From the NCBI RefSeq assembly GCF_006345805.1, contig NC_042998.1:161076001-161140000 (forward strand): a stretch of 64,000 nt of DNA, written 5' to 3'. The notes below the pieces were generated by a model. It did not search any database and was not told the DNA's origin. It worked only from the letters and a program-made list of their open reading frames with translations. Below, piece after piece: positions 2,721 through 15,600 of this stretch. Made by a program: the position numbers and the translations under genes. This DNA is from Octopus sinensis. Its lineage: Eukaryota. Positions within the stretch are counted from its first letter, which is position 1. The number at the start of each line of letters is the position of its first letter.

Positions 2721-5247
2721 AATGAACCAAAACTAAATATAAAAAAAACAACATGCCAGTGCAAGTAAAACAGTCTCAAATGATTTAAATTATATATTGA
2801 AAAACTGTACATTTATCTTTATAATTTATGTTGCAAAGAGATACATGATGTCAGAAATGGCAAAAAAATATAATAGAAATTGCACTGGGATTACACATAA
2901 AAGTCCTTAGTTTTCAGACCTAAACAAAGTTATTAATTTAACAACAGCTATTTTTAATCATCTTCAAAACATAAAAAGTAAAAAAATCCAAATGTAGGAA
3001 CTTGAAGAGTTTGTCATGATTTTCATAATTTTTTGCAGGTATAAACAGATGAGTTATAAATGAACTATCCAAAATGTTTCATCCATTTGTCCAAGAAAGT
3101 ATGAACACAACCATTTCTTGGCTATAATCAATGAGCTCAGACAAGACTCATGTATATGATACCATAATACATATCTCATATGCACTGTAGGAACACATCC
3201 TAAATACCCAAAACAAGCTCACCCAACAGATTGTCAAATTTGCTACAATCACTGGTTTATATGTGTATTGTTATTGTTTTTCTCTGCCTTTTCTGTCACT
3301 ATTGAAATGGCTACTTATGTTCAGAATTAGCAAAATGTCAACCTTTCCAACCCCACCCAATAGAGCCTCTTGTATCTCATTGTCTAAATCTCCAGCTTAA
3401 CATTTTACCTTCCCAAACCTAGGACTCTCTGGAATTCTTTCTCTGTCTATATTTTTTTTACAGGCATCAACCTACAAAAATTTAAGTTGAACATCAACCA
3501 CATTCATCCTATTAGCCTTTGTAGATCCTCAAAGATCAAAGATGCTGCCCCTTCCTTGACTAACTATCATATATAAAACTAAATAATCAAGAGTTGATCT
3601 AAACACACAGGTATGATATATAAATATTGGTGATTATAACAGAACAGGCTTAAAAAAATAACCAAGAAAGTTCCAGGTAGGAAATGAGGAATAAACGTCA
3701 TTTGATAGTCAGTAATAAGTCAATGTATCTATATAAATACATATATCTGTGCACATAGTTAATTGCACACAGTATAACTTTACAGTATACCTACATTCAG
3801 TTACTTTACCAAAAGATAATATAAACATATTAATTTTATTGTTGAAAAACTTACTTTTAAAGATATGTTATAACTATCTTATTGTGAATTTATATCTATG
3901 AATATAGATCTATGAGGTTAAGATACTTGGCTTACAAACTGCACCATGGTTCCTCTTCTACTTGGCTACTTTGAGAATGACTTGATTCTAACTGGGCACA
4001 TCCTTTCTACTTAAAATCAACAACATTTTATATTATCTCCATTTCCTTCTCATCTTCTTTAAGCCAGACACATCCCTCCCCAATGAATATACACACATAC
4101 ATGCATACACATTTGCACAACTTGGGCCTCTCATAAGCTCACAAGTATACACATATTGTTATGTTCATACATATGTGCACTTACATTGACTAACTCTGCT
4201 GCTTACTATTCGTTACTTGCATATTTCCACTCTTCTCTACTCAGAAACAACATACCTTTCTACCATCTTCATTCATTGTTACCATGATTCCCATGATAAT
4301 GCACAAATTATTTTCTTTCCTGCTCTCTCTCTCTCTCTCCCTCTCTTCTATATCATAAAAATACAAAACCTGTTCCCACAAAATTGACAATTTTCCATTT
4401 CTACACGGATGGCAAATACATTTACATGAAATTTTACATTTTGCTTTTTTTAACTGAATGGTCATGATGTAAGACCTTATTATAACATTGGTACACTGCT
4501 AATAGCAACTATGCAATTCTTACAAACTACTAAGAATACAGACTCAAAAGAGTGAAAGGAACAGGATATGAACTACCGACCTCTTGGCTGGCTGTCAGTT
4601 ATAGTATCAACTCAACCATCTAAGTTCACCTATTTATATACACATACACTAGCAGAGGAAGAACAAGAAGGAAAGAAATAAAGACAGAGTTTATTCACAG
4701 CATTTACATCCATATGATTTACATACTGTTGTACTACAAGTAGTTTATACAAAGCTTCACTCAACTGAAATCAGTGTTTGATGAATAGTATGTTTCATGA
4801 TGACAGCAAAATCATTCAATAATATTGGGAGGAAGAAAAAGTCAAAGTCAAGATTAGAGAAATAGAATATTGACTTTAAATGAAATTGAATTTGTTGTAG
4901 GACTCTGATGGCCTTCTAGATAATATTTTTTGATTGTGGGACCTACATTCATTTTCTTATTCTTGTAATGCAAATATATACACACATTTTTGCATTGCAA
5001 AAAGAAAAATAAATAAATAAATAAAAATTATTACAGCTTTAAAACAGTAAAATTTCCATTGAGAAAGGAATCTTCCTCTTCCTACTCCCAACCATTTATT
5101 TATTTATTCATATATTTATTTACTTATTTTTTCCAAGAGCAATAAATTCTGTTCTTGGCTGCTAGCGATGATAGAGGAAAACATTCTTGCACAGATTGTT
5201 TCTCCACTATTTCTCTTTACTGTGATGAAGCAAGTAATGGAGATAGG

Positions 5248-5248
<1 letters not shown>

Positions 5249-5296
<48 letters not shown>

Positions 5297-5299
5297 ATG

Positions 5300-5347
<48 letters not shown>

Positions 5348-5393
5348 AATATATGTGTGTATACACACACACATATATATATATATACATATA
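5249..5393. repeat. compound microsatellite (GT)n(ATGT)n(AT)n
   Basis: Directly visible; source of several spurious ORFs. Confidence 0.95.
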
Positions 5394-6989
5394 TTGTGTT
5401 CATTTTTAGAAACAGCAATTATCAAAAAGAAAAATCACTAAAAGAGCTTTTAGAAAGCAGTCTTTCTCTCTTTCAGGTCCCAGTTACTTAACATTAGAAG
5501 CAAAATGTAGAACTTCTCCAACAAAGTTTGAAGCTTGTGTAACATAAGCAAGCAATAGATGTTTCCCTATCGAAGGATTTAAAAAAAAAAAGGCAGGGAA
5601 AAGAAGCATTACATAAATATGTACCTCAAGTAGTTTCACAAACTGAAAATTGAAATAGATATGAATTCCAATCAGTTTTGATGCTTATAATTTCCATACC
5701 AGGATTATTCTATTATTTTGGTATTATTTCACTTTGTTTCTATTTGTTTAAAGGTTATTGTTAATTATACAACAGGATAGTCATATAGGATGCATTTGTC
5801 ACTGAGATAACACAAAATTACTCAAATAACACCACCAACAAAACCTATTGAAATCACTTCTTTAGTGTTTTAAGCATTGACTTATATTTATACCATTATT
5901 GATTAAGTTCAAAATCCAAAGTGACAGGGCAGACATTGAGTAAGATGAGCAAATGTTGAAGTGACAGTAAATGCAGTAAACAGCTAAAAAAATTCTTGCC
6001 TTTATCAGGCAACATAACTGAGTAATAGCAACGCCTACTCATTTTTAAAGCAATAGTGACAAGAATCTGGATAACAATGCATTGGATTTTAATAATTCTT
6101 TCTTTATCCTCCTCCTTTCTGTCTTCAACTATCTTTCTAAAGAGATATCAAAACAAAAATCAAAGAAAATTGAATAAAATTTGCATACATTTTTTTAGCA
6201 ATAAATCTGTTTTTGATTTAAAAAAACACAGATTTAATCAATTTGTCAATAATTTTAGAGATTCATTTTTATGATTACATTTTTCTTTCATGATTCACCT
6301 CAAGAAAAGAGATAGGCTAATAATAAAAATGGTACCATTATTACAAGGGGGAAAATGAAATAAGGCCTGATTGCATCTATGAGGTACAACATTTTTTTGT
6401 CTTTAATTGATGACTACTAGTTGACTACAAGCCAAATTACACAAAGTAGGATTACTGCTATTTATTTTATTAGAAAGGTGACAGGTTAAATCAGACTTGA
6501 GAGAATTTGAACTCATGACCAAAGAGTAGCACATTAAGATATTTATTATAAATCATAGAAATTCAATTCTGAAAAAAATAATAGAGAAAAATAACAAAAG
6601 GTTTAGATTTGGCATTAACATCAAAGAATATTATTTTTAGAAATCCTTTTAAGAATTATAATATAAACTAATTTAAATAATAATAAACATTAACAAACTT
6701 ATTATCTTTAGTTGAAATTTCAAAAATTTCTTTTTCCTAATTTGTGAAATTCTTCTATAACTTATAAGAGAATATGAAATGCTAACTAAAAGCTATATAA
6801 GTCATGAGCATCAGTGTCACTAGTCTTTGAGTAATGAACAAAAGACACAGGAATGTTAGGGTTTGAAATAAGAACTCTGATTTTCAATTAGATACTATCA
6901 TTAAATAGCTAGAGAGAATTTGAAAACTCAAGCAACGGTTATTATAAATTATGTGTGCAGGTAGATATAATTTCTAAATAACCACTGAC

Positions 6990-7262
6990 ATTATAAACTG
7001 TTACAGTGTCAAAGGGAGTGACCTGGAAAGAAGTAATAATAGAGAGCTGAAGCTACTGGACAAAAATCCTGGAAAAAGCTGAGTCATTGGGAATTTATTA
7101 TAGGATAGGGTTAATTTTAGGTGGTTTATACAAAAACATGAAACTACAGGAGTCACATCCCTAGAGACAACTAAAACTGAGTACAAAATATTAGTGCCAT
7201 CAAGGAAGTAACTTTGCTCAGTATATATATGGAGTTGATGGCAACTCAATACAGGATGCAAC
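6990..7262 (+). mobile_element. decayed RTE-like LINE reverse transcriptase fragment
   Basis: Translates as NCY..KGSDLERSNNRELKLLD, resembling the KGKGDALERxNYRGLKLLD motif that precedes RT domain 1 in RTE-clade LINEs; frameshifts and stops follow. Confidence 0.6.
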
Positions 7263-9427
7263 AATGTACTTTAATATCTCTTTCAATAGTAATACATCTG
7301 TAAAGTCAACTAAATAGTAGTAAGACAAGTAATTTATAATTGAGTGCTTGACTTGTGTCTAATATTTTGCTAAGTGCATTCTTCAGAGAGTAGAATGGTG
7401 CACTTTCTGTTACCAGTGGTAATTATTTACAACACTGTAAAGCAGCACATTAATAGCTTAACACTGGTAGAGACTGACATGGGAAAGTTCCTTTTTCTTA
7501 ACATTCTAAGAAAGTATAGACTCTACTGAATTGTTTTCAACAGGAACCAGTTGCTCAACCCTATCATGGGAAGTTTCAATTGCAAACTTAATTGAGATAT
7601 ATCTATGGAGAGGAATACAGTCATGTATATAAGCATATTTCTCCCTAACTAATACAATGACATGTCTCTAGTCCATCTGGCAATTCTCTGTAATTCCTTC
7701 TTAAATTCCATGTATATACTTGTCTCTCCTCTTTTATTATCTTTACTTTGTCTTACCCACTAAATTTGTTATAAGTAATTTCTTTGCAGAACACCATTCC
7801 TCTGGAATGTGTTCTGCCTATTTAGCAATCAATTTTTTAAACTAAACATTATTGATACTGTTTCCAAATTACTCTCATCTTTTGTTCATAGGAGGTATAA
7901 AACAACTGCTGATGAGCACTGCATTTTTTCAGCATAACAAATGAAGGAACCTATCAATAATATTAAAGGGAAAGAAAAAAAACAAAAAACAAAAAGCCTC
8001 ATGCATCCCTAGACACATGTTTAAGTTTCTCATGCACTGAAGATCAATGATGTTGAACAAAAAAGTAGAAATATTATAAAATGTTAAACTAAAATTAACA
8101 AGAAATTCAATTAGTTAATATTTGGGGTCCACAGAAGCTGAGTTAACTAAAAAATATCTTGAAAGAAAATAAGTTTTGTTTTTAACACAAGCAAGCAGAA
8201 GGTTTCAATATTGTTCATAGAAACAGCTGGCTTATGTTTGATATTCTTATCTTCATGATAAAGCAAAACCAGAGGAAAATAGTAAAAGAAGATAACAGAC
8301 AGACGATATATAATCTCAGTTGTAAAACAGAAAAGGTTCAAATTGAAAAAGAACAAAAATATAATTTAAAATTTAAAATATTGACATCTTGGATGTGAAG
8401 GGCCTATCTCTGAGGATGGAAATAAAATATAAATTCTGAAGATTAAATAAGACTAGCTGTCCATAAAGAATTTAAGCAATTCTGGTTTGTTTTAGTTTTA
8501 ATCTTCACAAAGCAGTCATCAAGATATGGCAGAATGATAGTGCTAAGGACAAAAATATTCTTGAAGGACAATAGTAGGTGAGCTTATCATATAGATAAAA
8601 GCTAATCAAACAAAATATGTTTTTCTGTGATATGTATGAGTATGTGCAGACATCGGTGTACACTCATGCAAGTGGAATGAGAGAGATTTTTAAAACAAAA
8701 AATTACAATCTCATAAGGCATGAAAGATATTGGTGGAATTATTAGAACAAATTTAGCTCATCAGCTTCATTCAATGTACAAAGAAAACATAATACCACCA
8801 TTATGTTACAAAAATATCAAACTAGTTACTGCAAATATATTGTGATAATGTACTGTACTTCTGTAGAATACATTAATTTTAAGAAAGTTTACAAAAGGAA
8901 AAAAAAAACCAAAAGCAAAACAGCTGATAATAAGATATATCAGGTGTTTTCAAAACATGAAACTCAAAAGGATATGATGAAATTTGGGCTAAAAAATAGT
9001 TAATCTACAGATAAATAATGGGAACCAGGCAAGATGTAAAAGCAAATAAAATGAAATAAGAGTTAATTTGGAATGAGTAAGTTAGATGTAGGTAAAGTAA
9101 AAGATCAATACAAGAGAAGATAATTTTTTTGTGAAATCTAAGCCACAATAGATGTGTTATAATAAGAATAATGCAGTGGGTGGAAAAGATGAAATGAGAA
9201 GAAATGGTTCTACAATGGGCGTTGGTAACTTCAAGGCAACTATTTTTAGTGGTACCTTGTTAAGTTGATTCTGTTTTAATGTAACAAAGGTTATACTTAA
9301 CTAACTTGGAAAATGAGAGATTTACATCAGATACTGACCAACATAAACAGCAGGAACAATAGTAAAAAAATTAAGAAGCTGGTCAATGGAACACAGAATC
9401 ATGCACACAGATCCTAACACAAATTGT

Positions 9428-12620: not shown

Positions 12621-14559
12621 AAATTTAGCATAAATTTTTTTTTTTCTGTCTGCATGCATAAAAAGAAAACTGAACATAAGATTCTATTTTTTGTTTTTTA
12701 AAGTGAAAATGTAAATAATACTGAAAAAGTAATGAATACTATAAGCACTGTGTTGTAACATATATTGGTTAAATTCAATAATACACATTTACGCTATGAA
12801 AAAGAGAGGTGAAGTTGTATAGAGAAAGCTTAGCAGATGCTAACACCAGGTTGCATATTTGTATATTTATTTGTTTGTTTATTTATTCTGAAACTGTTTA
12901 ATTGGATACATTATTTGTGATAGCTGGAATGCTATCAGTTGTCTCTAGAGGATGTGTTCATAGGAGAGGTTTATCTCCATTTTGCTACCAGACTCCAAGA
13001 GTCTGGAACAAAAAAAATAAAGATATAATTACTTCCTTCCTTGGCCAGTAGGGATTGAAAACATTTTGTTGACGTTGAGATCTATAGATTTTTATGTAAC
13101 TTCTATTCTGTAAGTATACAATCATCTAAGAAAGTCCTTATAAATAATGAGTGAAATTTTCTGAACAACCATCTGTACTACATGAACTACATTAAAAGAG
13201 GCAAAAAGAATAATTCATTATGAAGTTAAATAGAACATAAATCATTTATTTACTAAGTTGTTGCTGTTGTTGTTAAGTCACAAGTCAGCTCTGGTCAAAT
13301 AAGACCAATAAAAGTAAATGATTATGTGTCACTTTCAATGATGAGTATTGAATTGTTTGATCAACTAGATTACCTGTATGCTGAATCAACATGTAAGTGG
13401 CTGAATATTCCACAGACATGTGTATTTTTAATGTAATCTTCAGGCAGAAAGAATATGACACAGTGTGTGTATCAAGGCTCGTATCCTTTGAATAATTATT
13501 CATCCATTGTTCTTCTGCACATATACTTTTGCATATCAGGGACATTGTCCAATGCTTATTTAAGTCGGTGTGATATGAAAGAGATTTGGTTACAGTTTCT
13601 GGCAGGTCAAGCAAACAAACATAAGTTTCTTGGTTGGACCTTATTTACTAAGAATAAAAGTAGATATGAAGAAAAAAGACTATTGTTGATATCTATATTT
13701 GTTTTCATGAATTAAGTATAAGAATTTTTTTCTGATCACACTGGGGATTTCTGATGAACAAATTTCATCTGTATTTTGTTCAATTTTTATTACTATCAAT
13801 TTCTTTTTATTTAATTCTATTTGCAGTAAGAGAAGATGTATACTTATAAAAATTTACATAATGAATGGCTGAACCAACTGGACGTTTATCATTCCTAAAT
13901 TCTTACCCTGACATGGCTCTAGCTTAATTCATAAACACACATGCATATATATTTATTTAGACATAAAAAGAGGCTATATATATATATATTATATACATAT
14001 TTGTGTACGTATGCATATGAGTGTATTACTTCTGAAGGGAAAAACAATCTATAAACCTGTAAACTAATTTATAAATAATGAGAGAGAGCAAATTTACTAG
14101 TGATCAATAGTATCTCTAAATAACCCACACACATTAAGCTATGGGTTTTACAAACAAGGATGAGGAAGGGTTCATCTACAAAGGGCACAAATGCTTCAAG
14201 TTCAGAAATTTGCCCAGCCTTGGTGACAAAATAAAATACACTTTAACCTTCAACATGAAGGGCAAGTGGGATTTACTTTTTATAAGGTAAAAGACATATA
14301 TTGTAAATCAGAAAACTACTACTTGACATTTAATGACACTTAAGTGTCTTTTTACTGTCAAGTACTTGGGTCAAGCATTTGTTTATTTGACATAATCTTT
14401 TATATAAGAAGACAGTACACATTGTCTTTCTTCCATAGGTTACTGTTGGGAGTATCAGAGGAAATTAGAGATTGCATCCCTGCTTTTTAAAAAATTTATC
14501 AAAACTTTATTTACATTATTTACATTTGACAGATATTTGTCCTCATCTTGTTTGTTGTT

Positions 14560-14605
14560 AACACAAAGTTTCAGCTGATATACCATCCTGCCTTCATCAG
14601 GTGTC
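14560..14605 (-). ncRNA. minimal type I hammerhead ribozyme motif (left arm, mutated)
   Basis: Minus strand reads gacac-CUGAUGA-a-ggca..agcu-GAAAC-uuu-guguu: core boxes, stem I gacac/guguu, degraded stem II and stem III. Confidence 0.7.
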
Positions 14606-14955
14606 TTGGGGGAAATTTCGAACCTGGATTCTCATTCCTAAGGTATTTTTCAATGTTATTATTGTTATTATTATTATTATCATTATTATTATTATCATCA
14701 TCATTATTATTATTCAGGTCACTGCCTGGAATCGAACTCAGAATCTTGGGGTTAGTAGCCCGTGCTCTTAACCACTATGCCATATGCCCATGGCGTAGTA
14801 CGGGCTACTAACCCCAAGATTCCAAGTTCAATTCCAGGCAGTGACCTGAATAATAATAATAATAATGATAATAATAATAATAATAATAATAATATTAATA
14901 ACAACAACATCGAAAAATACCTTAGAGAAAGAGAATCCAGGTTCAAAATTTCCTC

Positions 14956-15000
14956 AAAACACCTGATGAAGGCTAGAGGGTATATCAGCCGAAACGTGTT
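14956..15000 (+). ncRNA. minimal type I hammerhead ribozyme motif (right arm, 3-nt deletion at cleavage site)
   Basis: aacac-CUGAUGA(14963-14969)-a-GGCU-agaggguauauc-AGCC-GAAAC(14991-14995)-guguu: perfect stem II and stem I aacac/guguu, but the triplet present in the left arm is missing. Confidence 0.7.
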
Positions 15001-15102
15001 AGCAACAAAAAGATGAGGACAAATATCCATCAAATGTGAATAATGTAAATAATGTACATAATTCCTCGTCTCTTAAATATAGAAACTGTTTTGTTTTATA
15101 TT

Positions 15103-15600
15103 GACTATTGGGGTTGACTAAAAAAATTCAATCTCTACTCTCTCCAATGCCACCATGAGCGTTACATCATTTGTGCGATGTGGAAAATATTCCATCAATA
15201 TTGCACAAATGATGTTGACATCAACATTAAAATCAACCCAGGACTTGGCTCCTGTGCTATCTGCCCACTACAAAAATTGAACTCAAGACACATTACGACA
15301 CAACTACTTTACCTCAACCAGTCTGGCTCTCTTTAATATTAAACCAAAATACATCGAAACAGAAACAGATCCCATAAAATTCAAAAGTTCTCTGGACAAA
15401 TTTCTCCAAAAACACCCAGACCAACCTCCTACACCCAGATATGTCTCCAACAATAATAACTCTTTGCTAGAGTGGGCCATGGTGTCCCATATATGACTGA
15501 GGTGTAAATCATGATCTAAAAGACTTCACCAGGTGGGTGATGCTATCAAATTAGACATGGCCTGGGCCTGTACTGGCTAAAACCTATCTAAGATCAATCA
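15103..15600 (+). mobile_element. 3' fragment of a CR1/L2-group LINE (ORF2 C-terminus plus 3' UTR)
   Basis: Translates DYWG*LKKFNLYSLQCHHERYIICAMWKIF...FKSSLDKFLQKHPDQPPTPRYVSNNNNSLLEW, matching the YWERLKxLxLYSLQRRRERY...LDKFL..PDQP...NSL..W C-terminus typical of invertebrate CR1-like LINEs. Confidence 0.8.

What the first reader, a model, noticed from the sequence alone, without database searches (positions are those of the whole stretch)
14508..15089. Palindromic 'SINE-retrozyme': back-to-back tRNA-promoter units each ending in a hammerhead ribozyme
Seen: two ~270-bp arms in inverted orientation whose tRNA-like heads abut at 14789/14790 and point outward. Each arm reads head (A box tggcatagtgg, B box gagttcgattcc), (TAA)n linker, unique body, then CUGAUGA-stem II-GAAAC hammerhead core with stem I, then a tail with aataatgta repeats. 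The right arm runs on ~38 bp beyond the left arm's end. Established: minimal type I hammerheads mark the terminal repeats of Penelope-like elements (PLEs), which often occur as partially truncated inverted repeats; a Pol III promoter plus hammerhead is known from schistosome Sm-alpha repeats. Inference: this is a non-autonomous, Pol III-driven, self-cleaving retroelement mobilised by a PLE, inserted or propagated as a palindrome. I do not know of this architecture being described in cephalopods.
Basis: partly seen in the sequence, partly recalled or inferred. Interest (0 to 1): 0.8.

Follow-up and report, generated by a model that had tools for sequence, protein, structure and literature searches.

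The report
Penelope retrotransposon with captured tRNA promoter
The palindrome is two back-to-back end pieces of a once very active Penelope-type retrotransposon, not a separate SINE; the unusual part is a tRNA-like segment just before the element's gene, at the spot where its RNA likely starts, which may let RNA polymerase III transcribe it.

Summary
The inverted repeat, tRNA-like heads, (TAA)n linkers, hammerhead cores and one-sided tail are real. The interpretation changes. Each arm is the terminal repeat (pLTR) of an autonomous Penelope-like element (PLE) with RT and a GIY-YIG-type end. The head follows the ORF stop codon in 28 of 30 endonuclease-selected copies. The 'unique body' is the ORF's 5' end, 42% identical to an intact PLE protein. 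Head-to-head pairs are common (39 of 86 hammerhead-anchored loci), mostly one tailed plus one tail-less arm (105 of 134). They carry target-site duplications (62 of 94; null 6.8), so each is one insertion, likely primed from both DNA ends. Palindromes, tails and minimal hammerheads are known PLE features. New here: a tRNA/SINE-derived head with intact A/B boxes between stop and start codon. Of 107 arms that reach it, 100 end there, which likely marks the transcription start. The 2.6-kb unit has no T4 terminator (borderline against controls), and none of 60 control PLE flanks has such boxes. Pol III use is untested (about 45%). Both hammerheads at this locus are mutated, and the family is about 5% decayed. 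Verdict: new variant of a known kind, interest 0.5.

The parts
14508..14789 (-). Left arm: tail-less pLTR copy (head, TAA linker, ORF start with hammerhead)
   Evidence: 4.9% from column majority
14716..14789 (-). tRNA/SINE-derived head, complete
   Evidence: collinear with tRNA-Arg(TCT), z 6.4; closer to a tRNA-SINE head, E 1e-3
14772..14782 (-). A box, intact, head positions 8-18
   Evidence: sequence; consensus recalled
14728..14739 (-). B box, intact, head positions 51-62
   Evidence: sequence; the same 12 nt occur in the SINE head of L132
14656..14714 (-). (TAA)n linker, forming the 5' leader before the ATG
14508..14635 (-). 5' end of the PLE ORF (ATG at 14635-14633), frameshifted in this copy
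14560..14605 (-). Minimal type I hammerhead; stem-III palindrome mutated (GAAACUUU)
14786..14791 (.). Palindrome centre: remnant of the element's natural GCCC-AC-GGGC self-complementary word
14790..15089 (+). Right arm: tailed pLTR copy
   Evidence: 8.1% from column majority
14790..14848 (+). Right head with two deletions; A box truncated, B box (14824-14835) mutated
14849..14907 (+). (TAA)n linker
14908..15089 (+). Leader end plus the first ~55 codons of the PLE ORF (start codon mutated near 14929)
14958..15000 (+). Minimal type I hammerhead with a 3-nt deletion at stem III
15052..15089 (+). PLE 'tail', present on one arm only
   Evidence: PMC8557442, PMC11167929

Best explanation
The locus is a decayed head-to-head pair of pLTR copies of an autonomous Penelope-like retrotransposon, likely inserted in one event in which both cut DNA ends primed reverse transcription on the element's RNA, and that RNA likely starts at a captured tRNA/SINE head that may work as a Pol III promoter. 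Shown: the unit is [stop codon, 30 nt, GCCC-AC-GGGC, 75-nt head, (TAA)n, ATG, ORF of about 815 codons with the hammerhead in its first 30 codons, RT, GIY-YIG-type end]; it occurs in partial tandems; pairs are tail plus tail-less; pairs carry TSDs; copies pile up at the head's 5' edge. Inferred: RT starts internally at two sites about 35 nt apart in the ORF 5' end, as shown in vitro for the anole PLE. Starting there on a transcript that begins about 2-7 nt before the head gives a ~260-nt cDNA, so short copies outnumber ORF-linked ones about 15 to 1. The two cDNAs would join at self-complementary words near their 3' ends. Pol III drive is the least certain step (about 45%); the hammerhead would cleave only as a dimer or with protein help.
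For: Head directly after the EN stop in 28 of 30 EN-selected copies. RVT_1 hit E 1.2e-9 in a copy. ORF 55-68% identical to RT+GIY-YIG-type proteins. Body frame 42% identical over 162 aa to intact P0003, E 3e-40. All 30 PLE ORF loci fetched with a distant query belong to this family. Tail+tail-less in 67 of 78 pairs and 105 of 134 in the larger overlapping set; only 1 convergent pair. Direct repeats >=8 nt around the outer ends in 62 of 94 pairs, null 6.8; >=10 nt in 42, null 1.1. Arms share subfamily letters: b59 AA 10/AT 8/TT 31, P 8e-5; h64 P 5e-4. 25 of 52 full-tail arms match >=3 nt of the ORF continuation. 100 of 107 arms that reach the head start carry no ORF-side sequence upstream of -16. 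A/B boxes in 0 of 60 control PLE flanks. No T4 run in the 2,285-nt ORF yardstick, against 2 of 52 control families without one.
Against: The T4 result is borderline: P 0.06-0.23 against shuffles, P about 0.04 by run extension, and two control PLEs without A/B boxes also lack T4 in their ORF. A TATA-like TTTATAAG 28-30 nt before the inferred start (kept in 33 of 38 copies) fits Pol II equally well. The 5' pile-up overlaps a -9.5 kcal/mol hairpin that could stall RT. h64 differs between ORF-linked and short copies (A in 31 of 58 vs 5 of 25, P 0.007), which leaves room for a short-copy lineage. RNA reads show no discrete starts or cleavage ends. This locus has no clear TSD (5 nt). Pfam found nothing on two of the three family ORF pieces scanned, and no GIY-YIG hit on any; no uninterrupted full ORF was found.
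Confidence: 0.7

Rival explanations
1. Same PLE, but transcribed only by Pol II from the TATA-like box at the stop codon. The tRNA/SINE head is a passive relic of an old SINE insertion, and the pile-up marks a Pol II start or an RT stall at the hairpin.
For: TATA-like word 28-30 nt upstream; control PLE L305 has a TATA-like word before its hammerhead; Drosophila Penelope has a LINE-like internal promoter in its pLTR (PMC2377424, passages); the ORF must be translated, which uncapped Pol III RNA does poorly (recalled); the T4 test is not decisive.
Against: The boxes are intact at tRNA spacing while the rest of the tRNA fold has decayed; copy ends fall at the head's 5' edge, about 10-15 nt before the A box; the whole 2.6-kb unit lacks T4.
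Confidence: 0.4
2. One reading: an independent non-autonomous, Pol III-driven SINE or retrozyme that propagates from short or palindromic masters using PLE proteins in trans.
For: Short copies far outnumber ORF-linked ones (about 16,000 heads vs about 1,000 ORF-head junctions); short copies keep the internal boxes; h64 frequency differs between the classes; GT-type centres exist.
Against: Every part of the unit is present in the autonomous element; majority letters agree at 257 of 258 columns; 3' ends run on into ORF sequence; tail lies on the AC arm in 10 and on the GT arm in 6, so there is no fixed palindromic master; no tandem hammerhead arrays of the retrozyme type were seen among fetched loci.
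Confidence: 0.12
3. The palindrome forms by fold-back of one cDNA at the GCCC-GT-GGGC hairpin and self-copying, not by two primed cDNAs.
For: The natural self-complementary word is the centre of 72 exact palindromes; arms are mostly concordant for subfamily letters; short 14-24-nt inverted stubs are common in the centre-selected set.
Against: 8 of 49 pairs are discordant at b59, against about 1.5-2.5 expected from mutation (P 2e-4 to 4e-3; the expectation is my estimate); complete arms often carry the non-natural GT; both outer ends match the two known RT start classes.
Confidence: 0.25
4. Chance juxtaposition of two independent insertions, or an assembly artefact.
For: The family has tens of thousands of copies.
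Against: 39 of 86, 16 of 27 and 21 of 30 anchored loci are head-to-head pairs, against 1 convergent pair; TSDs span whole pairs; strand-switch joints occur in independent RNA reads.
Confidence: 0.01

Closest known systems
Penelope/Poseidon PLEs, esp. anole PAc (PMC11167929, parts 1-2 of 4 read)
   Same: Single ORF with RT and C-terminal GIY-YIG, pLTR partial tandems, hammerhead overlapping the ORF start, 30-40-nt tail between two RT start sites, both strands cut and extended.
   Different: No tRNA-like promoter is mentioned in the parts read; here an A/B-box head and a (TAA)n leader lie between stop and start codon, and short pLTR palindromes dominate.
Minimal type I hammerheads of metazoan PLEs (PMC4209133, part 1 of 4 and passages)
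   Same: Short helix I, long helix II, unpaired base before G10.1-C11.1, palindromic 15.2-16.2; dual motifs 100-700 bp apart on opposite strands were already reported.
   Different: This family's sequence and its link to a tRNA-like head; both copies at this locus are mutated.
Schistosome Sm-alpha/Sj-alpha SINE-like hammerhead repeats (PMC6765202, passages)
   Same: Pol III-type promoter and hammerhead in one short repeat.
   Different: Those are non-coding tandem repeats; here the unit is the terminal repeat of a coding element and is head-to-head.
Non-LTR retrozymes (bioRxiv 10.64898/2026.07.22.740005, part 1 of 5 and passages)
   Same: Short hammerhead-bearing derivatives of PLE pLTRs.
   Different: Defined by direct tandem repeats with a hammerhead in each unit; 'tRNA' and 'promoter' occur 0 times in its main text.
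TRIMp3: Cassandra, Helenus, Ajax (PMC10886601, passages)
   Same: A tRNA- or 5S-derived promoter captured, probably from a SINE, inside a terminal repeat.
   Different: Those are non-autonomous LTR elements, and the paper expects autonomous partners to use Pol II; here the carrier is an autonomous PLE.

Membership tests
EN+ Penelope-like element | RT domain in a single long ORF | tested here: met
   RVT_1 E 1.2e-9 on L105; 55-68% identity to PLE-type proteins
EN+ Penelope-like element | C-terminal GIY-YIG endonuclease | tested here: met
   VYSIPCSCGRLYKGET motif aligns with P0003; homolog P0010 hits GIY-YIG at 1.2e-6, P0003 at 0.23; the family's own pieces gave no Pfam GIY-YIG hit
EN+ Penelope-like element | pLTR and partial tandems | tested here: met
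   L190, L191, L201, L210; L287
EN+ Penelope-like element | Hammerhead in the pLTR or ORF start | tested here: met
EN+ Penelope-like element | 30-40-nt tail at one end; inverted 5'-truncated copy | tested here: met
   105 of 134 pairs are tail plus tail-less
Penelope/Poseidon clade | No Zn-finger-like linker between RT and EN; placement in an RT tree | tested here: inconclusive
   No Cys cluster in the linker; no tree with named references was built
Minimal type I hammerhead | CUGANGA/GAAA core, helices I and II, palindromic 15.2-16.2 | tested here: met
   Family form folds as expected; 52 of 209 non-anchored arms keep both core parts; both window copies are broken
Minimal type I hammerhead | Covariation of stems | tested here: met
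   Across PLE families: 19 of 60 control flanks show the same core with different paired stems; within this star-like family there is none to measure
Minimal type I hammerhead | Self-cleavage | not testable with these tools
   No read-end peak in unstranded cDNA libraries
tRNA-derived SINE | A and B boxes at tRNA spacing | tested here: met
tRNA-derived SINE | Separate non-autonomous lineage with its own body | tested here: not met
   Body is the ORF start; head sits in the autonomous element; 28 of 30 head-anchored loci carry the PLE body
tRNA-derived SINE | Pol III transcription | not testable with these tools
   Indirect only: 5' pile-up, T4 absence
Non-LTR retrozyme | Direct tandem units, each with a hammerhead, non-coding | tested here: not met
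   Head-to-head pairs and ORF-derived body
Non-LTR retrozyme | Circular RNA | not tested
   No RNase R or small-RNA library was listed

The most novel reading that the evidence does not exclude
An autonomous, protein-coding Penelope-like retrotransposon took over a SINE's tRNA-type promoter and was transcribed end to end by RNA polymerase III (no T4 terminator in 2.6 kb). Through internal RT priming it seeded the genome with tens of thousands of SINE-like pLTR copies and thousands of long dsRNA-forming palindromes.
Probability: 0.25. Interest if true: 0.85.

Novelty: new variant of a known kind. Interest (0 to 1): 0.5.

Why it matters
It shows how a SINE-looking family can be nothing more than the terminal repeat of an autonomous PLE, so automatic annotation would likely misfile it. 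The tail/tail-less pairing with TSDs around whole palindromes is genomic support for two-ended target priming, a step left open by the in vitro PLE work. If the A/B boxes are functional, this would be a protein-coding retrotransposon template under Pol III control, which my searches did not find described for PLEs. The family also supplies thousands of 300-600-bp inverted repeats that would form long dsRNA inside host transcripts; a link to A-to-I editing is an untested inference.

Tried and rejected
ARAGORN on the window found 0 tRNAs. Rfam on the whole window listed only microsatellite noise among the 150 of 318 rows shown; on the locus and on a well-kept head it gave no tRNA or hammerhead hit. 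Overall arm-to-arm divergence (0.096 vs null 0.095) is uninformative because the family is star-like. Differences at b59, b71, b87 and b91 are artefacts of anchoring on an exact hammerhead and were dropped; b59 showed no class difference in unanchored sets (P 0.46). The 5'-end histogram is inflated near -20 by likeness between the natural and inverted upstream sequence; one search replaces it. The core count had an offset error, corrected. No extra conservation of hammerhead or box columns among copies, as expected for dead copies. No spliced head-to-ATG junction recurred (15 of 53 joints shown). No free SINE with this exact head was seen. The two T4-free control PLEs have no A/B boxes. PDB sequence search found nothing. 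Single-protein metagenome scan and viral scan found nothing. Sequencing-run search: no RNA holder listed. Zero RNA depth on this locus's flanks is not evidence of silence, since the RNA organism may differ from the genome's. No Pfam family passed its cut-off in 66 window ORFs. Earlier scan findings: nothing.

Full report
Observation. The window holds two inverted arms at 14508-14789 (-) and 14790-15089 (+). Each has a tRNA-like head, a (TAA)n linker and a body with a CUGAUGA...GAAAC core; only the right arm has the last 34-38 nt. The right head has two deletions that truncate its A box, and both hammerheads are mutated at stem III. The two arms would fold together at -341 kcal/mol. No other copy lies in the window, and none of 66 window ORFs scanned passes a Pfam cut-off.

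A large family. The body query gave 5,231 first-look candidates. Exact patterns occur 975 times (41-nt hammerhead), 2,280 times (25-nt head word), 72 times (28-nt palindrome centre) and 189 times (ORF-side junction), with reversed controls at 0. Scaling by the share of unanchored copies that keep each pattern gives roughly 16,000 heads (24 of 165), 38,000 hammerhead arms (4 of 158, wide error) and 1,000 ORF-head junctions (7 of 38). Copies lie 5.8% from the column majority, 4.9% without CpG. The family is therefore old and mostly star-like, with two or three weak subfamilies marked by h64, b59 and b128.

It is the end of an autonomous PLE. One hammerhead-anchored locus had endonuclease-coding DNA just upstream of the head (L084). 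Among 30 copies selected on that DNA, all show the stop codon and a 30-nt spacer, and 28 continue into the head. Upstream lie RT motifs (RVT_1, E 1.2e-9). The ORF is 55-68% identical to database proteins with RT and PLE-type domains, and a more distant homolog hits GIY-YIG. Downstream of the tail, 42 exact and 118 near-exact loci continue into further coding sequence. Natural copies read MRTQVRNFPKTPDEGWRVYQPKRCV from an ATG before the hammerhead, 42% identical over 162 aa to the N-terminus of intact P0003, E 3e-40. The 'unique body' and 'tail' are thus the first 55 codons. Partial tandems exist (L190, L191, L201, L210). All 30 loci fetched with a distant PLE protein belong to this family, four being one copy repeated. 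No uninterrupted full ORF was found; the longest open frame listed without a stop in the match was 551 aa.

How the palindromes arise. Head-to-head pairs were found at 39 of 86 hammerhead-anchored, 16 of 27 head-anchored and 21 of 30 body-anchored loci, against one convergent pair overall. 3' ends fall into two classes, body positions about 140-165 and 180-184. Pairs join one of each in 67 of 78 cases and in 105 of 134 in the larger overlapping set. Direct repeats of at least 8 nt lie at the outer ends of 62 of 94 such pairs (shuffled null 6.8), and of at least 10 nt in 42 (null 1.1); this locus itself shows only 5 nt. Arms share subfamily letters more often than chance (P 8e-5 and 5e-4). Each pair is therefore one insertion at a staggered cut with an RNA-3'-derived end on both sides. 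In vitro, the anole PLE cuts and extends both strands and starts RT at two internal sites that bound the tail (PMC11167929, parts 1-2 of 4 read). Inverted 5'-truncated copies with a one-sided 30-40-bp tail are standard for PLEs (PMC8557442, passages), and opposite-strand hammerhead pairs 100-700 bp apart were reported (PMC4209133). I infer two-ended priming. The centre is the element's own GCCC-AC-GGGC word, where two cDNA ends could anneal. The tail lies on the AC arm in 10 and on the GT arm in 6 loci, and 8 of 49 pairs are discordant at b59, which favours two cDNAs over fold-back without excluding it.

The hammerhead. The family form has helix I of 5 bp, helix II of 6 bp, an unpaired A before G10.1-C11.1 and the ACGU palindrome in place of stem III, matching the minimal type I description (PMC4209133). 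The same core with different paired stems occurs in 19 of 60 flanks of related PLEs from other organisms. Of 209 unanchored arms, 52 keep both core parts. Cleavage was not testable.

The tRNA-like head, the new element. It aligns end to end with this genome's tRNA-Arg(TCT), z 6.4, the best of 22 distinct tRNA sequences covering only six amino-acid types. A head profile scores the heads of a real tRNA-SINE family higher (E 1e-3) than those tRNA genes (E 0.6). The A and B boxes are intact at tRNA spacing, while the fold has decayed below ARAGORN and Rfam detection. None of 60 control PLE flanks has an A/B-box pair. Of 136 arms with a head, 107 reach position +12 or earlier, and 100 of those carry no ORF-side sequence upstream of -16; ends cluster between -7 and +11. 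This is best read as the RNA's 5' end, though a -9.5 kcal/mol hairpin lies there. The sense strand has no T4 run in the 2,285-nt ORF yardstick or in four long natural copies, and none is visible in the pLTR. Shuffles expect 1.4-2.4 (P 0.06-0.23), and 2 of 52 control families also have none, so this is suggestive only. A TATA-like TTTATAAG overlapping the stop codon lies 28-30 nt before the inferred start (33 of 38 copies) and fits either polymerase. I put Pol III use at about 45% and end-to-end Pol III transcription at about 25%.

SINE reading. Short and ORF-linked pLTRs share the majority letter at 257 of 258 columns. 25 of 52 full-tail arms match three or more bases of the ORF continuation, and 28 of 30 head-anchored loci carry the PLE body. 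Against this, h64 differs in frequency between the classes (P 0.007). I read short copies as by-products of internal priming near the start of the autonomous RNA.

RNA. In three cDNA runs of one study (organism B, not shown to be the genome's species), 5,021-7,471 of 11.5-12.9 million reads lie on a family copy at 84% likeness. They fall equally on both strands, 86-88% run on into unrelated sequence, and there is no start or end peak. They look like passengers in host transcripts. Strand-switch joints confirm palindromes in RNA.

Literature. Nine answered searches listed no paper that, by title, abstract or the passages read, describes a PLE with a tRNA-type promoter. Read in part: PMC4209133, PMC11167929 and bioRxiv 10.64898/2026.07.22.740005. 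Passages only: PMC8557442, PMC2377424, PMC6765202, PMC10886601, PMC13282606, PMC4758252, PMC6962438 (which counts 235 hammerhead-1 loci in giant squid) and PMC8967140. No supplements were read, and repeat libraries in them may hold this family. Repbase, Dfam, SINEBase and the 1994 octopus SINE paper were not available, so the family may already be catalogued as a Penelope or a SINE.

Verdict. A real feature and largely known PLE behaviour, with one undescribed part: a captured tRNA/SINE head at the likely transcription start of an autonomous PLE. New variant of a known kind; interest 0.5.

Noticed in passing
L004, L009, L025, L077, L081, L082 (linker between head and body): The (TAA)n linker often holds 3' ends of other repeats that end in (AAT)n, apparently other LINE-type elements, so it seems to be a landing pad.
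   Followed up: no
window 15140-15575: A different repeat lies just right of the palindrome (raised depth in DNA contigs); not identified.
   Followed up: no
L038 (G000:C2:95100622 region): ORF-linked copy in which the ~60 nt before the head are replaced by an inverted 22-nt copy of the head at a TTAA microhomology, which looks like a short template switch.
   Followed up: partly
L290-L293: One near full-length copy appears on a chromosome-scale contig and three small contigs at 95-99% identity: segmental duplication or assembly redundancy.
   Followed up: no
L382-L403 (genome contigs): Records titled as bacterial or archaeal MAGs hold PLE ORFs, some with hammerheads, probably animal host DNA in the bins.
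   Followed up: no
hammerhead stem III, body 88-90: A 3-nt deletion recurs in at least 29 of 209 unanchored arms and is mostly not shared between arms of a pair, probably slippage in the TGTTGTGTT repeat.
   Followed up: partly
L132, L064, L190, L027 and others: At least three other tRNA-headed SINE families appear as weak hits of the head profile; one is the closest relative of the PLE head.
   Followed up: partly
ORF stop codon of the element (e.g. L096, L222): A TATA-like TTTATAAG overlaps the last codon and stop, 28-30 nt before the inferred start; only ORF-linked copies have it, which could explain why tandem copies are the sources.
   Followed up: partly
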